Both the position numbers and the translations under genes were made by a program. The notes under the pieces were generated by a model that saw only the letters and a program-made list of their open reading frames with translations, was not told the origin of the DNA and made no database searches. From positions 21,758,345 through 21,822,344 of the forward strand of contig NC_134028.1 in the NCBI RefSeq assembly GCF_964204645.1: a stretch of 64,000 nt of DNA, in the 5' to 3' direction. The DNA is from Tubulanus polymorphus. Lineage: Eukaryota > Animalia > Nemertea. Below, piece after piece: positions 48,301 through 54,300 of the stretch (positions are counted from its first letter, which is position 1; each line of letters opens with the position of its first letter).

Positions 48301-51300
48301 GAATGAATGAATCTATTTTGCATTTCAAAATTACATTATAAAATAGAAAAATTGGCAGGGTTCCAGGGTTTGACACTTTTCGAGGAGTTGTCAAGGAGAA
48401 CATTTTTCTAATAGCAAATATCTCAATATTCAAGATTTCCAGGACTTTTTGGCATTTGCTCAAATTCAAGAAAAGACCTTGAAAAACAGTTTTCAAGAGT
48501 CGTAAGGAACCTGCCAAACATGGACCGGGAAGCCTGAATTAGGAAAACGGGAAGGGTTGAAGATTTCACACGTACCATGATTCCGTGATGAATGAATCCC
48601 CGACGGAATCTCGCCGGATTCAGATGCGGATATTCCTCCGTGCTGGTGACTTTGATTCCCCAGATCGATTTCCACGATTCGTAGAGCTGCTCGTGCACGG
48701 GATAAACCCCTGAGTGATGCGGCGCCACCGCGTAAGAGTTGTTCACCACGATTCCCTTTTCCTAAAACGTGACGGGGAAGAAAAAAACGATGAAACATTT
48801 ACGCACCGGTCCCGATTAGCAGCCAGCTTAATCCAGATTAGTTCGATATCGTAATTATTTACTTTTTAAAACGATCTATCAAAGCTCTTTAGGAAACATG
48901 TATTTTTTTAGCATAGTTTAAAACCAGCTTGGTTATAGTATCAGTACATAATGCTGAATCATCATCCTATTTCAAATCAGACTAGGCAATTAAGCAGAGT
49001 AGGTAGGCTACTCGGGTCTTTTTTTTGGATATTTCAATATACTTTCGTCTTATTTCCTTTTTACGTTTTTGCTTAATTTTTGGCCACGCCGGAAATTGAA
49101 ACATAGACATCAGTCTCGTAAACAATAAACGGCTTTATTTATCGCAGGCGATTAATGTTGCAAAAATATTTATTCAGTTACGAATCAGCCAGCCAGCCAG
49201 CGAAAGAGAGAGACAGGCTATAAACTACCGGCAGGACACGAAACATTGCTAAAATCGATCGGTATAACTAATCTCTAGCGTCCGCGCGAGACCATTAATA
49301 TACCCATCTCACCGAGAGACAGATCGATCAAACGAAATTCGCAAATTGGTTTTTCACTTAAATTATACACGCGCGAGCGTGCGTGCGGGCTGGCGAATAG
49401 GAAATAAACTCGTATAGGTTGTTCAAACGAGTTTTCTACGCGACTCATCAATCTCTTCGTTTAGTTATTCTATTACGTACAACGAACGAGCATTGATTTT
49501 TACCGGTCTGGAAATTGAAAATAACATGATCGAATCGAATATTGAAGGGATACAGAGACCGGAGGAGACAATTGGAGGGTAATGATGGACACCAGTTGGA
49601 GGACACTAGTGGATACCAGTTCTGGGACACCAGTTGGTGGACACTAGTGGATACCAGTTCTGGGACACCAGTTGGAGGACACTAGTGGACACCAGTTGGA
49701 GGACACTTGTGGACACCAGTTGGAGGACACTAATGGACACCAGTTGTGGGAAACCAGTTGGAGGATACTAGTGGACACCAGTTGTGGGACACCAGTTTGA
49801 TGACACTAGTGGACACCAGTTGTGGGACACCAGTTGGAGGAAACTAGTGGACACCAGTTGTGGGAAACCAGTTGGAGGATACTAGTGGACACCAGTTGTG
49901 GGAAACCAGTTGGAGGATACTAGTGGACACCAGTTGTGGGAAACCAGTTGGAGGATACTAGTGGACATCAGTTGGAAGATACTCGTGGACACAAGTCAGA
50001 GGATACTTTAGTGGACATCACTTGGAGGACACTAGTGGACACCAGTATACACAATCAATATTGTTGCATCAAATATATTTTCCAATAAATACATAAGAAT
50101 AAATAGGCTATTACCAAATCCCATATGATATCATCGAATTGGATCTTATATACCGCCGGAATGACCACAATAGCATTGAAGGGTTCCTTATTCAGTAAAC
50201 AATAACAGTAAAACTGTAACAGTCAAAACACAGTAAAACGTATTGAACTTATTTTAGTCACGATGATCATTATTTCTATGACTTATTCAAAAGATGACTT
50301 AATTCAATGAATTATAAAATTGGGACTAAAAAATAGGGACAACTTCAGTAATTCGTCGACTCATTCAAATGACTTTTTTAAGTGAATTCGACTGTATATA
50401 ACGACGTCCACGGGTTGGTTCTTTTATAGCGAGCTATTTTCGCGATTTCATTCGTTCGTTCTCCGGTTTCGTGTATCTCTTCAATATCGATTCGATCTCG
50501 ATGGAATCGTGCGGGGAAATCAAACTAAACTAACGAGGATTCAGATTTAAGAAAACAGATGGAAGTAAAGGAAACGAATGATAGCGGTTACATCACATTA
50601 AACAAAGCTCGAAACTAGAATTCAAGGTCGAGAAACGAAGAAAATGCATGATTTTAACTAGTCTAACGGATATATATATATATATATATATATATATATA
50701 TATATATATATATATATATATATATATATATATATATATATATATATATATATATATATATATATATATATATATATATATATATAGATATCACACGAAA
50801 ATAATACATCAACTAAAGATTGAAGCCGAGAAGCCGAAGAAAGCTATTATTTTTTTCTCAACGAAATTAGTATGAAGTCTGGTTAGAAAGACGACGCTTA
50901 TTTTTGTTGTCGTTGTTAGAAAGCTGTAGCCCGATTCGCGTATGATCTCACGGGGCCTTTGCGCGCACGGCAAGACGTAAACCAAAAACCAAGAAATAGA
51001 AGCGTCCGGGCTGGGTTTCATATAGACATGGACGCAAAACAATCCAAAACCAGTTATGATTACAGTTTCTCATTGTTACTATGATGGTCAAGATTGAGGA
51101 TTTACCCCTTGTGGTAGTTTTGATACTCAGTCTATGAAACCGGGCCGCGAAATGCAGCGCGCGCTAGGCTTCGGCGAGCTTTCGCGAAAAAGGCACCCAG
51201 GTCCCGGTGATTGAGTTTAAATAGTAGTGGCCCTTTTTTCTTGTTACCTTTGCGAACCCTTTGTTAAAAAGCAATTCTTTGTCGATGGCATCCTTAGTCA

Positions 51301-54300
51301 GCAGTGAATGGGCCTGGGCATGACTCCACATGTGGTCGAACCACCAGAATGCATGCCTATGCTCTAAAACGATAGAAGACAATCCGGGACTGGTGATGAA
51401 GTTGTTTGTTTTGTTTTTTCCGACCACTATTGACGTGCACGGCGACTAAAGGATTAATATGCACAGACGGCTGCAGAGAGCTACAGTGTACTTCAGAAAC
51501 ACATTGTCTTTCTTTTCAATGGATACAGCGAAAAAACCCGGGCCCAGTTTTATAGACTGGTATTCACTTTAACCCACGGGCTAACTTAAATGCAAATGAA
51601 ATGAGTTAACCACTCAGTCAAGAGTAACCAGTCTATAAAACGGACCCTGGAGAGGATTTCTGTCTGATCAATGTGTGAAAATCGTTTAATGCAAACTATG
51701 CAGGAATTCAGCGTTAAGGAGCTTTGAGGTACACGCCTACCATAAACAGACACGGTGTTTATAAGGCCATCGAACATTTTAGTATCGATTTGACGAGAAA
51801 GACAATTCTTCTGAAGTTGGCTATCGACATCAACATAACACAAGGAGCATTAAAATAGGTAGGCTAGAAATAGTAGTAGTAGTAGTAGTAGTAGGAAGGA
51901 GCGAGGATGGGGTAGATTATCAATCAAATCAATACATTTTCAGAAACCGGTTAATCAACTGAAAGTAAAAGATGGATAGAGTGAATATGAATTTCGCTAA
52001 TAACTAAAATCAAAATAGCCGCGTTTAAAAAGCTTTCGCATCATCAACGCAGATCAATGACGACGGTAATGTGCTAGTGCGTAAACCCATCGGATTAGCA
52101 ATTCATCGTTTTTACCCCGAACCCTCCGGACAGAATGAATTTCGAGTCTTGTCGGAAAACGAGCCCAGAATTTCTAGCCGTTCAAAGGACAGCCTCACAA
52201 GATAAGGGCTGAATTTCAACAGGTACATGCGTAGAGTCTATTGTCCCTCCTTCGGCACACAATAGATCATTGATTGACCCCCTACTCACCATAGAATAAG
52301 TTTGCACCCCTGACATCATAAATTGCACCCCTAACATCATAGATTCACCATCCCCCCCCGCACTAACATCACAGATTGATTGATATGCGATGATGATTTG
52401 TTATGATTTGCAGCGCGTGGTGCGGAGACTCGACACCCGGTCATCTATCGAGTTCTTCGCGAGTCGATACAATTTCTTTACCTTCGCGAACTGTTTATTA
52501 AACGACAGTTCTCGTTCCAACACGCGCGAGCTGTCGACTTTATGCGGCTGTAGGTGGCGCCACATGTGGCCGAACCACCAAAATTTGTGTTTGTTCGCTG
52601 TAAGAGAATGGTCAACGAAAAGAACAGATAATATGAACTGCTGCAAAAGAACGGTTACTGATACTATGATCTTAAGCCCACAGCGCGCGCACGGCAACAA
52701 GACAAGAAACACTGAAACAAACTTTCAGTGCCACCTAGTGATGATAAATGTAATAATTGTATCACATGACACCAAAATGGCAGCGATCGTGATTTCAGAC
52801 ATGTGATCAGCTCGTTGTAACTGATTGGTTGTTGTGTTTCAGTGTTTTTCTCTCATCCTCCCTCGGCAGGGATTGGAACCTGATTGATGGCAGAAACTTG
52901 TCGCAGTACAAAACCCTTCCACTCTAACCCACGTGCGCAGATACACATATAGCTAAGATGATGTCATTATTTGCCAATCAGAAATTCCGTTTTATTTCAG
53001 CACCGGTTTTTCCATTTACAGTTCTTCCGTAGAATCTGCTTCAGCAATCTGATTGGTGACGCAAGTTTTCGCGTGTCAAACCTGCGAACCCGATCTAGTG
53101 TGGCAGGGTTTCGTGCCATGGCTCAGTTTCCAGCGATACCATTACAGGTTCGAATCGCTGCCGAGGAAAGCATGTGTTTCTGCGTGATTCCTAGCATCGG
53201 TCCTTAACAATCGAAACGGTGTTTCTCGTTTCAGGGCGGGCCCGTGCACTCAGTCGGGAAATGAGCCTTATTTCGTGCCGTGTGCGCTAGGCTTTAGATT
53301 AAAACGAGGAGGCGAATAACCTCAACCTCCTTGACCTGTGATCAGAACATAAATCAATAGATTGATCCTTGATGACTGTTATCTTACAAGCCGGTATATC
53401 TATTTCAGTGGTATTTGAACCAGAGGGACTGCTGCACCCGCGGCAATAATTCACCGGATATTTTTTTTTCCTTACTAAACCATGTTTTTGATGAAATTCG
53501 CCGCGGCAATATTAGAACCTGTTAAAAATCAGCAATTGGCCACAGAAATTTGCAATGAAAAAATCGCTTCAACACTTCAGTATTTCATCTGCAGATATCT
53601 AAAATATTTGTATCTAGTGCATTCATTGTTTAAAATTTGCAACGATAACCTTTTGACCATTTAGGGTCACAACAATTATAGATATATGCGCATGTCGATT
53701 CATGTTATACCAACAAATACGGCAACTGCAAACAACAAACTATTATCACCTAAAACTAGTTCGAAGTCAACTCGGGTACACCTCTCCATTTGCCAGTTAT
53801 ACATTTCGTGAAAGCTTCTCTCGACAATAGCTATTTCTCAAGCTGTAAAATGTGCCGACACGTTTTCTACAGTGGACTCCTTATTCGTTGGAAAGTTACC
53901 GGGTTTGATATTTGATATACGTACAGTAGTCGTGTGGTTCCCGATGGAACAATTACATTTTGCTGCTATAGAATTTCTTTTCTCGATTTCGAGCCTTGCT
54001 TTGTAAAGAGATTCTGAGCAAAGTGTACTCGACAAACTATGACATGAGTCATATAGAATACAGGTTTCTCCTAACCCTACTAACCCTAACCCTAATTTGC
54101 AAGTGGTAATGTAGAAAAACAGACCACATAGATAATCTTAACCCTAGCTTCTGATTGGTCAGAGCTGGTTACCTAGTATGCAACTGCCCATGTCTTTAAC
54201 CCTAACCAAAGCTTCTGATTGGTCAGAACTGGTCATCAGGTATGCTAATTGCCTACATGCTTAATCTTAACCCTAGCTTCTGATTGGTCAGAGCTGGTCA

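What the first reader, a model, noticed from the sequence alone, without database searches (positions are those of the whole stretch)
50935..52463. Downstream docking site that can pair with a selector after either NDST alternative exon
Seen: 50935-50973 (+ strand TTCGCGTATGATCTCACGGGGCCTTTGCGCGCACGGCAA) is colinearly reverse-complementary, with mismatches, to 51153-51188 just after exon 3B (pre-mRNA UUCGCGAAAGCUCGCCGAAGCCUAGCGCGCGCUGCA). It is also complementary to 52408-52463 just after exon 3A (UCGCGAAGAACUC...GUCUCCG...CGCGCUGCAA). These are GC-rich islands in AT-rich introns. Established: competing docking/selector pairing controls mutually exclusive splicing in insect Dscam1, Mhc and 14-3-3zeta. 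Inference: pairing with the 3A selector loops out 3B, while pairing with the 3B selector favours 3B.
Basis: partly seen in the sequence, partly recalled or inferred. Interest (0 to 1): 0.85.

Follow-up and report, generated by a model that had tools for sequence, protein, structure and literature searches.

The report
Twin RNA hairpins flank NDST exons
A ribbon-worm gene for a heparan-sulfate-building enzyme has two versions of its active-site exon, flanked by four related intron sequences predicted to fold into two hairpins that likely help steer splicing, though not in the simple way first proposed.

Summary
The exon pair is real. NDST exons 3A and 3B (116 nt each) encode the deacetylase's two metal-binding histidines, and isoform pairs differing only at this exon exist in Lineus, Lingula, Liolophura and three Octopus species. 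The gene matches Tubulanus polymorphus at 100%.

The pairing claim is half right. Docking site with the 3B selector: net -24 kcal/mol, 0 of 300 shuffles as good. With the 3A selector: -9.3, 39 of 300 as good, and no predicted pairing in the full fold.

A shared 12-base core occurs 4 times in 64 kb, all at these sites. The best predicted fold is two hairpins flanking the pair, which loops out neither exon. The only spliced contig available joins exon 2-3A-3B-4, a frameshifted double inclusion.

Most likely reading: a bidirectional-type pairing system whose default exposes both exons, with decay of frameshifted mRNA likely enforcing exclusivity. No orthologous introns were obtained, so conservation and function are untested.

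The parts
61467..62507 (-). NDST first coding exon (347 codons)
   Evidence: 100% identity to the Tubulanus polymorphus NDST model P0003
57001..57127 (-). NDST exon 2 (constitutive, ends in phase 1)
   Evidence: spliced to 3A in an X4 contig
53272..53318 (-). YU: upstream element similar to YB; complementary to both XA and XD (core 53276-53287)
   Evidence: YU:XA net -20.5 and YU:XD net -22.5 kcal/mol, each 0 of 300 shuffles; similarity to YB 2 of 500; core hit
52845..53190 (.). High-copy inverted-repeat element (MITE-like, inferred) inside the YU-XA loop
   Evidence: depth in the thousands at 52774-53149 against 25.5 for single copy in X1; 71 expected pairs between its arms
52660..52706 (-). 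XA: copy of the docking site ending 63 nt before the 3A acceptor (core 52685-52696)
   Evidence: 73% identity to XD over 33 nt; 0 of 500 shuffles; exact core hit
52598..52655 (-). Polypyrimidine/acceptor region of 3A; predicted preferred partner of YA
   Evidence: net -15.6, 4 of 300 shuffles; duplex-only 44 of 300; 24 expected pairs
52482..52597 (-). Exon 3A, 116 nt, with both metal-ligand histidines
   Evidence: used by NCBI model XP_074649508.1; H400/H404 align to human H389/H393
52405..52466 (-).
   Evidence: pairing to XD not above shuffles; no core hit at 3 mismatches; similarity to YB 63 of 500
51535..51650 (.). Small high-copy inverted repeat in the 3A-3B intron
51433..51444 (-). XB: possible decayed X core 70-81 nt before the 3B acceptor (at chance level)
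   Evidence: 3-mismatch hit, one of 23 in the window; YU:XB z +0.2
51248..51363 (-). Exon 3B, 116 nt, open frame, both histidines kept
   Evidence: best match among 13 proteins tested is Lineus isoform X2; present in the X4 spliced contig
51150..51192 (-).
51000..51149 (.). Repeat-derived hairpin filling most of the YB-XD loop
50932..50978 (-).
48576..48761 (-). NDST exon 4 (constitutive)
   Evidence: the loose end of the X4 contig at 51247 matches its start with one mismatch, compared by eye

Best explanation
This NDST gene carries two copies of its active-site exon (3A, 3B), flanked by four related intronic elements that are predicted to fold into two hairpins (YU:XA before 3A, YB:XD after 3B) and likely act as a bidirectional-type splicing guide whose default fold would leave both exons exposed. 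Shown: the exons; the frameshift when both or neither are included; the four-element family; a spliced contig with both exons. Predicted: the two hairpins as the best fold, with weaker alternatives that loop out 3A (+15.5 kcal/mol), 3B (+20.4) or both (+6.3 to +11.8). Inferred: the hairpins favour use of the 3A acceptor and the 3B donor; single-exon mRNAs arise when proteins or folding kinetics favour a weaker pairing; nonsense-mediated decay removes the 3A+3B and skip-both mRNAs, so exclusivity at the protein level needs no strict docking competition.
For: The 12-base core with up to 2 mismatches hits 4 times in 64 kb, all within 2.35 kb around the pair and alternating in orientation; 1.09 are expected window-wide. 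Pair energies against 300 shuffles: YB:XD, YU:XD and YU:XA 0 of 300 on net energy, XA:YB 2 of 300. The ensemble gives YU:XA 25 and YB:XD 26.5 expected pairs. The bins holding YB, XD, XA, YA and YU are at single-copy depth in X1, while the loops are high-copy. The inner arms sit about equally far from the outer splice sites (cores 88 nt before 3A, 84 nt after 3B). The X4 contig joins exon 2-3A and 3A-3B by GT-AG joints and runs on into exon 4, the outcome Ivanov and Pervouchine describe for a bidirectional system when both near pairs form (PMC6071210). An allele seen in three runs lengthens YB:XD (net -23.2 to -26.0). The exons are only 69 of 116 nt identical and each best matches a different Lineus isoform, so intronic copies this alike imply selection or a recent copying event (inference).
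Against: No orthologous intron was obtained, so there is no conservation or covariation test. The one fetched locus with two exon copies (L017, 1 of 22) is a distant animal with no similar elements. Absolute energies are not exceptional: four control stretches of the same gene give best pairs of -17 to -28 kcal/mol, and the strongest pair near the exons (-31.4) is between repeat arms. Against the whole 8.2-kb region, single-element similarity is modest: XD 6, XA 9, YU 17, YB 33 of 300. The core was chosen after seeing XD and XA, so only two of the four hits are independent. Gene-wide, six GC-rich windows pair with XD better than YB does. A second allele weakens YU:XD by 2.2 kcal/mol. The double-inclusion evidence is one contig from one sample, and contigs drop rare variants. 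Folding 2.4 kb in silico is unreliable.
Confidence: 0.45

Rival explanations
1. The four elements are not splicing signals. They are the decayed ends of two old foldback or MITE insertions, or a cluster of DNA-binding sites in both orientations; exon choice is set by proteins and cleaned up by decay of frameshifted mRNA.
For: Both Y...X units have the same orientation and enclose high-copy inverted repeats. Repeat-derived pairs of equal strength occur in control introns. The frameshift alone can explain exclusivity. The 80% likeness filter would miss family members as diverged as XA and XD (73%).
Against: No further copy of the core in the other 61 kb; the arms are single-copy while the loops are not; both inner arms sit next to the outer splice sites of the pair; complementarity runs well beyond the 12-base core (25-30 pairs).
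Confidence: 0.28
2. One reading: one downstream docking site (XD) is competed for by YA and YB; YA:XD loops out 3B, YB:XD favours 3B.
For: YB:XD is strong. YA begins and ends with the same short words as YB, as a duplicated selector would. A 33-pair YA:XD helix can be forced. Downstream docking sites are described for 14-3-3zeta, Mhc and MRP1 (PMC6071210).
Against: YA:XD is not above shuffles (39 of 300), has 0.0 expected pairs and is the costliest state tested (+20.4). YA prefers the 3A polypyrimidine region (4 of 300). On strength alone the model predicts 3B dominance, yet the NCBI model uses 3A and the contig holds both. It ignores YU and XA.
Confidence: 0.17
3. The four arms are mainly an on/off valve: the two local hairpins exchange for nested long-range pairs (YU:XD with XA:YB) that loop out both exons and send the mRNA to decay, tuning NDST amount.
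For: YU:XD is as strong as the local pairs (net -22.5, 0 of 300) and XA:YB is above shuffles (2 of 300). These states cost only 6.3 and 11.8 kcal/mol, less than either single-exon state. Skipping both exons shifts the frame.
Against: YU:XD has 0.46 expected pairs in the ensemble, and YU meets XA 1.7 kb before XD is transcribed. An exon 2 to exon 4 joint could not be seen, because exon 4 lay outside the stretch laid.
Confidence: 0.1

Closest known systems
Bidirectional RNA pairing in Drosophila srp exon 4 (Yue et al. 2016, PMC4691838; abstract and first quarter of Results read)
   Same: Two alternative exons; four intronic elements; an upstream and a downstream pairing; loss of control gives double inclusion or skipping.
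   Different: In srp the docking sites pair with inner elements and each pairing loops out one exon. Here the strong partners are the outer, near elements, the inner ones are weak, and the upstream and downstream stems are copies of each other that can cross-pair.
Duplication model of competing structures (Ivanov and Pervouchine 2018, PMC6071210; parts 1, 3, 4 of 5 read)
   Same: The order a, a', exon, b'', a'', exon, b', b fits YU, XA, 3A, YA, XB, 3B, YB, XD; the paper names the near-near state that includes both exons.
   Different: The model starts from two independent stem-loops; here the two stems share sequence.
Downstream docking site/selector systems of 14-3-3zeta, Mhc, MRP1, Dscam1 exons 4 and 9 (as summarised in PMC6071210 and in passages of PMC8042237; the primary papers were not read)
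   Same: A complementary element downstream of the cluster and an element just after each exon.
   Different: Only one of the two selectors pairs above chance; no conservation or covariation is shown here.
Human ATE1 exons 7a/7b, elements R1-R5 (PMC7797038, abstract only)
   Same: A two-exon cluster with several competing intronic helices.
   Different: In ATE1 the competed element and its rivals were proven by compensatory mutation; the geometry differs.
coq-2 mutually exclusive exons (PMC7434440, passages)
   Same: An alternative exon remodels an enzyme's active-site region in invertebrates; annelids and molluscs are among the lineages discussed.
   Different: Different enzyme; a functional difference is shown for coq-2 and untested for NDST.

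Membership tests
Mutually exclusive duplicated exon pair | Tandem homologous exons of like length and phase, each giving an open frame | tested here: met
   116 nt each, 69 of 116 nt identical, both open with exons 2 and 4
Mutually exclusive duplicated exon pair | Each exon is used alone in mature mRNA | tested here: inconclusive
   3A-only in the NCBI model; no 3B-only protein of this species found; both forms annotated in Lineus, Lingula, Liolophura and Octopus
Mutually exclusive duplicated exon pair | The two exons are not spliced together | tested here: not met
   An X4 contig joins 3A to 3B; one contig from one sample, abundance unknown; the product is frameshifted
Unidirectional docking site/selector system | Every exon has a selector that pairs significantly with the one docking site | tested here: not met
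   YB 0 of 300, YA 39 of 300
Unidirectional docking site/selector system | Docking site conserved across species, with covariation | not testable with these tools
   No genome held; the metagenome scan gave no close relative
Bidirectional pairing system (srp type) | [quoted passage not shown] | tested here: met
   YU:XA and YB:XD, each 0 of 300 on net energy; predicted only
Bidirectional pairing system (srp type) | Long-range pairs to inner selectors that loop out one exon each | tested here: not met
   YA:XD z -1.1; YU:XB z +0.2; both 0.0 in the ensemble
Bidirectional pairing system (srp type) | Disruptive mutations shift exon choice and compensatory ones restore it | not testable with these tools
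   Needs a minigene
Transposon terminal inverted repeats | Many dispersed copies in the genome | tested here: inconclusive
   Single-copy depth at 80% likeness in X1 and no other core in the window; older copies would be missed
Known structured RNA family (Rfam) | Match to a covariance model | tested here: not met
   Two weak hits far below gathering score, neither on the elements

The most novel reading that the evidence does not exclude
A four-arm RNA switch built from two copies of one hairpin sits across an alternative active-site exon pair that is widespread in lophotrochozoans. Arm exchange would choose among 3A, 3B, both and neither, so one structure would set both the amount of NDST (through decay of frameshifted mRNA) and which deacetylase active site is made, giving a single gene the range that vertebrates get from four NDST paralogs.
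Probability: 0.15. Interest if true: 0.75.

Novelty: new variant of a known kind. Interest (0 to 1): 0.5.

Why it matters
NDST sets the sulfation pattern of heparan sulfate. An alternative exon that carries its two catalytic histidines in nemerteans, a brachiopod, molluscs and an annelid suggests two enzyme forms from one gene, which can be tested by expressing both. I found no paper on it. Docking/selector control is documented mainly in arthropods and human ATE1; searches pairing it with mollusc or oyster found no case, and the listing showed none. A validated case here would extend the mechanism to a new animal group, with a geometry (homologous upstream and downstream stems) that I did not see in the papers read.

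Tried and rejected
No whole genome is held, so there was no genome-wide search for element copies. Rfam gave nothing relevant. The run search listed no holder on record as RNA; X4 nonetheless has a spliced contig. No exon 2-3B joint was listed and no loose end at the 3A donor was shown (25 loose-end rows were not shown); contigs show presence only, so this is not counted as evidence. Exon-only protein searches found just the model itself for 3A and nothing for 3B (weak searches). No stored protein shows a frameshifted-3B tail. A third, decayed exon copy between exons 2 and 4 was not found. The metagenome scan gave 22 loci, none of a close relative; L017 and L004 share no element sequence. Exon trees of 38 columns cannot settle one origin against several: holding 3A and 3B together is not rejected (p-AU 0.226), nor is a nemertean clade (0.495). 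YB does not pair with the 3B polypyrimidine region. The search of protein representatives never left the queue. Yue et al. 2017 on MRP1 was not held. No earlier findings of this scan were returned. No supplements were opened; genome-wide lists of predicted mutually exclusive exons in supplements or databases could hold this NDST pair.
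Full report
Gene and exons. The finding lies in an NDST gene on the minus strand. Its first coding exon matches the Tubulanus polymorphus (ribbon worm) model at 100%, which has the Pfam N-terminal, deacetylase and sulfotransferase domains. Exon 2 (57127-57001), 3A (52597-52482), 3B (51363-51248) and exon 4 (48761-48576) have AG/GT ends. 3A and 3B are 116 nt each and identical at 69 positions. 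Either alone keeps the frame; both or neither shift it, and 3A+3B stops inside 3B. The 3A-3B intron is 1118 nt, so steric exclusion does not apply (inference). The exon's two histidines (400 and 404 in the model) align to human NDST1 H389 and H393, which bind the catalytic metal and are needed for activity (PMC10864358, passages). Both exons keep them.

Spread of the exon pair. Of 8 isoform pairs compared, 6 differ only at this exon (Lineus, Lingula, Liolophura, three Octopus species), one Owenia model holds both copies in tandem, and the Haliotis pair differs elsewhere. Listed members of the Branchiostoma, Daphnia (15 of 25 listed), Cloeon, Ischnura, Cimex, Centruroides and Haliotis clusters show one version per species. 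Among 13 proteins scored, 3A best matches Lineus X1 and 3B best matches Lineus X2, and 3B groups with Lineus X2 in the tree (89/88). The 38 columns cannot reject a duplication confined to Tubulanus (p-AU 0.226). The NCBI model uses 3A, and its cluster has one member.

The observation. The 3A selector (YA) gives -9.3, with 39 of 300 as good; wider windows agree. In a scan of 1258 windows along the gene, YB ranks seventh among distinct partners of XD, behind GC-rich repeat and exon windows, and YA is not in the top 14.

What was missed. A copy of XD (XA) ends 63 nt before the 3A acceptor (73% over 33 nt; 0 of 500 shuffles). A copy of YB (YU) lies about 570 nt further upstream (2 of 500). Over both strands of the window, XD's two best non-self matches are XA and YU, XA's best is XD with YU tied second, and YB's best are YU and XD; YA matches none of them. 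The 12-base core with up to 2 mismatches occurs 4 times, at YU, XA, YB and XD, against 1.09 expected; it was chosen from XD and XA, so two hits are independent. At 3 mismatches a possible decayed copy (XB) appears before 3B among 23 hits, and YA still does not. With the whole 8.2-kb region as search space the support is moderate: 6, 9, 17 and 33 of 300 for XD, XA, YU and YB, and 289 of 300 for YA. The order in the pre-mRNA is YU, XA, 3A, YA, XB, 3B, YB, XD.

Predicted folding. Net energies: YB:XD -23.2, YU:XD -22.5, YU:XA -20.5 (each 0 of 300), XA:YB -16.3 (2 of 300), YA:XD -9.6 (34), XA:YA -9.4 (60). In the ensemble of 53350-50900, YU:XA has 25 and YB:XD 26.5 expected pairs, YA:XD 0.0, and YA pairs instead with the 3A polypyrimidine region (24 pairs; 4 of 300). 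Forced states cost +6.3 (YU:XD), +11.8 (YU:XD with XA:YB), +15.5 (3A looped out) and +20.4 (3B looped out by YA:XD). Both loops are filled by high-copy inverted repeats that fold back, so each Y...X pair behaves as a local hairpin. The whole-unit z-scores (-2.0 and -6.1) include these repeats. Four control stretches of the gene give pairs of -17 to -28, and the strongest pair near the exons (-31.4) joins two repeat arms around 3B, so energy alone does not prove function.

Sequencing runs. Four runs from two samples of one study hold the region. In X1 the bins with the elements are at single-copy depth, while the loops are at hundreds to thousands. One allele in YB, seen in X1, X2 and X3, strengthens YB:XD to -26.0; one in XD, seen in X1, is neutral there and weakens YU:XD to -20.3. 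One X4 contig (1156 nt) is spliced: exon 2 to 3A, 3A to 3B, then a loose end matching exon 4 (the last step compared by eye). Double inclusion therefore exists as a spliced product. Its share is unknown.

Relatives' introns. A metagenome scan gave 22 loci. Only L017 holds two exon copies, the first with an in-frame stop and the second cut by the contig end. Neither L017 nor L004 resembles the elements. Conservation and covariation remain untested.

Mechanism. The arrangement fits the bidirectional duplication scheme of Ivanov and Pervouchine, including their state in which both near pairs form and both exons are included (PMC6071210). It differs from srp, where the inner elements are the working partners (PMC4691838). 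I take as most likely (0.45) that the two flanking hairpins guide splicing, that their default fold exposes both exons, and that decay of frameshifted mRNA supplies much of the exclusivity; the roles of the hairpins and of decay are inferred. The MITE label and the role of nonsense-mediated decay rest on general knowledge, not on a call.

Novelty. Searches for NDST with mutually exclusive or duplicated exons, for docking/selector pairing with molluscs, oyster or Lophotrochozoa and for this species with alternative splicing found no description; subscription papers are not covered. Papers seen: PMC6071210 parts 1, 3 and 4 of 5; PMC4691838 abstract and the first quarter of Results; passages of PMC10864358, PMC8042237 and PMC7434440; abstracts of PMC7797038 and PMC8791459. 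Verdict: a real exon pair of some interest and a real but untested four-element family; the proposed competition is not supported as written. Interest 0.5.

Noticed in passing
L017:1069-1186 and 2411-2501: An unnamed animal contig has two tandem copies of the NDST exon; the upstream copy has an in-frame TGA between the histidines (a dead or poison exon). GC-rich patches around it give predicted pairs of -19 to -22 kcal/mol, untested against shuffles.
   Followed up: partly
window:51105-51152 and 51537-51584: Arms of two copies of one small repeat face each other across exon 3B and give the strongest pair in the region (-31.4), though each prefers its local partner in the ensemble. Another copy lies at 36881-36984.
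   Followed up: partly
window:1373-3563 (-) and 5300-7729 (+): Two divergent gene copies, each with a dermatopontin domain (Pfam DERM) followed by a Ser/Thr-rich frame with no Pfam hit that looks by eye like an aerolysin-type pore-forming domain (recalled resemblance); possibly a ribbon-worm toxin or defence protein.
   Followed up: no
window:8647-10927 (+): Exons with repeated WSC-like domains (Pfam WSC confirmed for 8647-9045).
   Followed up: no
window:16521-32600 (+): Exons of a Rab11-FIP3/4-like gene (Pfam hit for 29864-30163; the extent is judged).
   Followed up: no
window:12530-13792 (-): A 421-codon open frame without a Pfam hit, probably from a mobile element (guess).
   Followed up: no
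window:52725-52742 (-): A stretch just upstream of XA resembles a CTCF-binding consensus (recalled, not tested).
   Followed up: no
window:52885: A T>C difference in X2 and X3 but not X4 or X1, inside the repeat hairpin, reads as A>G on the pre-mRNA strand; allele, paralogous repeat copy or editing cannot be told apart.
   Followed up: no
window:49549-50045 and 50669-50792: A 38-nt minisatellite and a long TA run lie in the 3B-exon 4 intron, downstream of XD.
   Followed up: no
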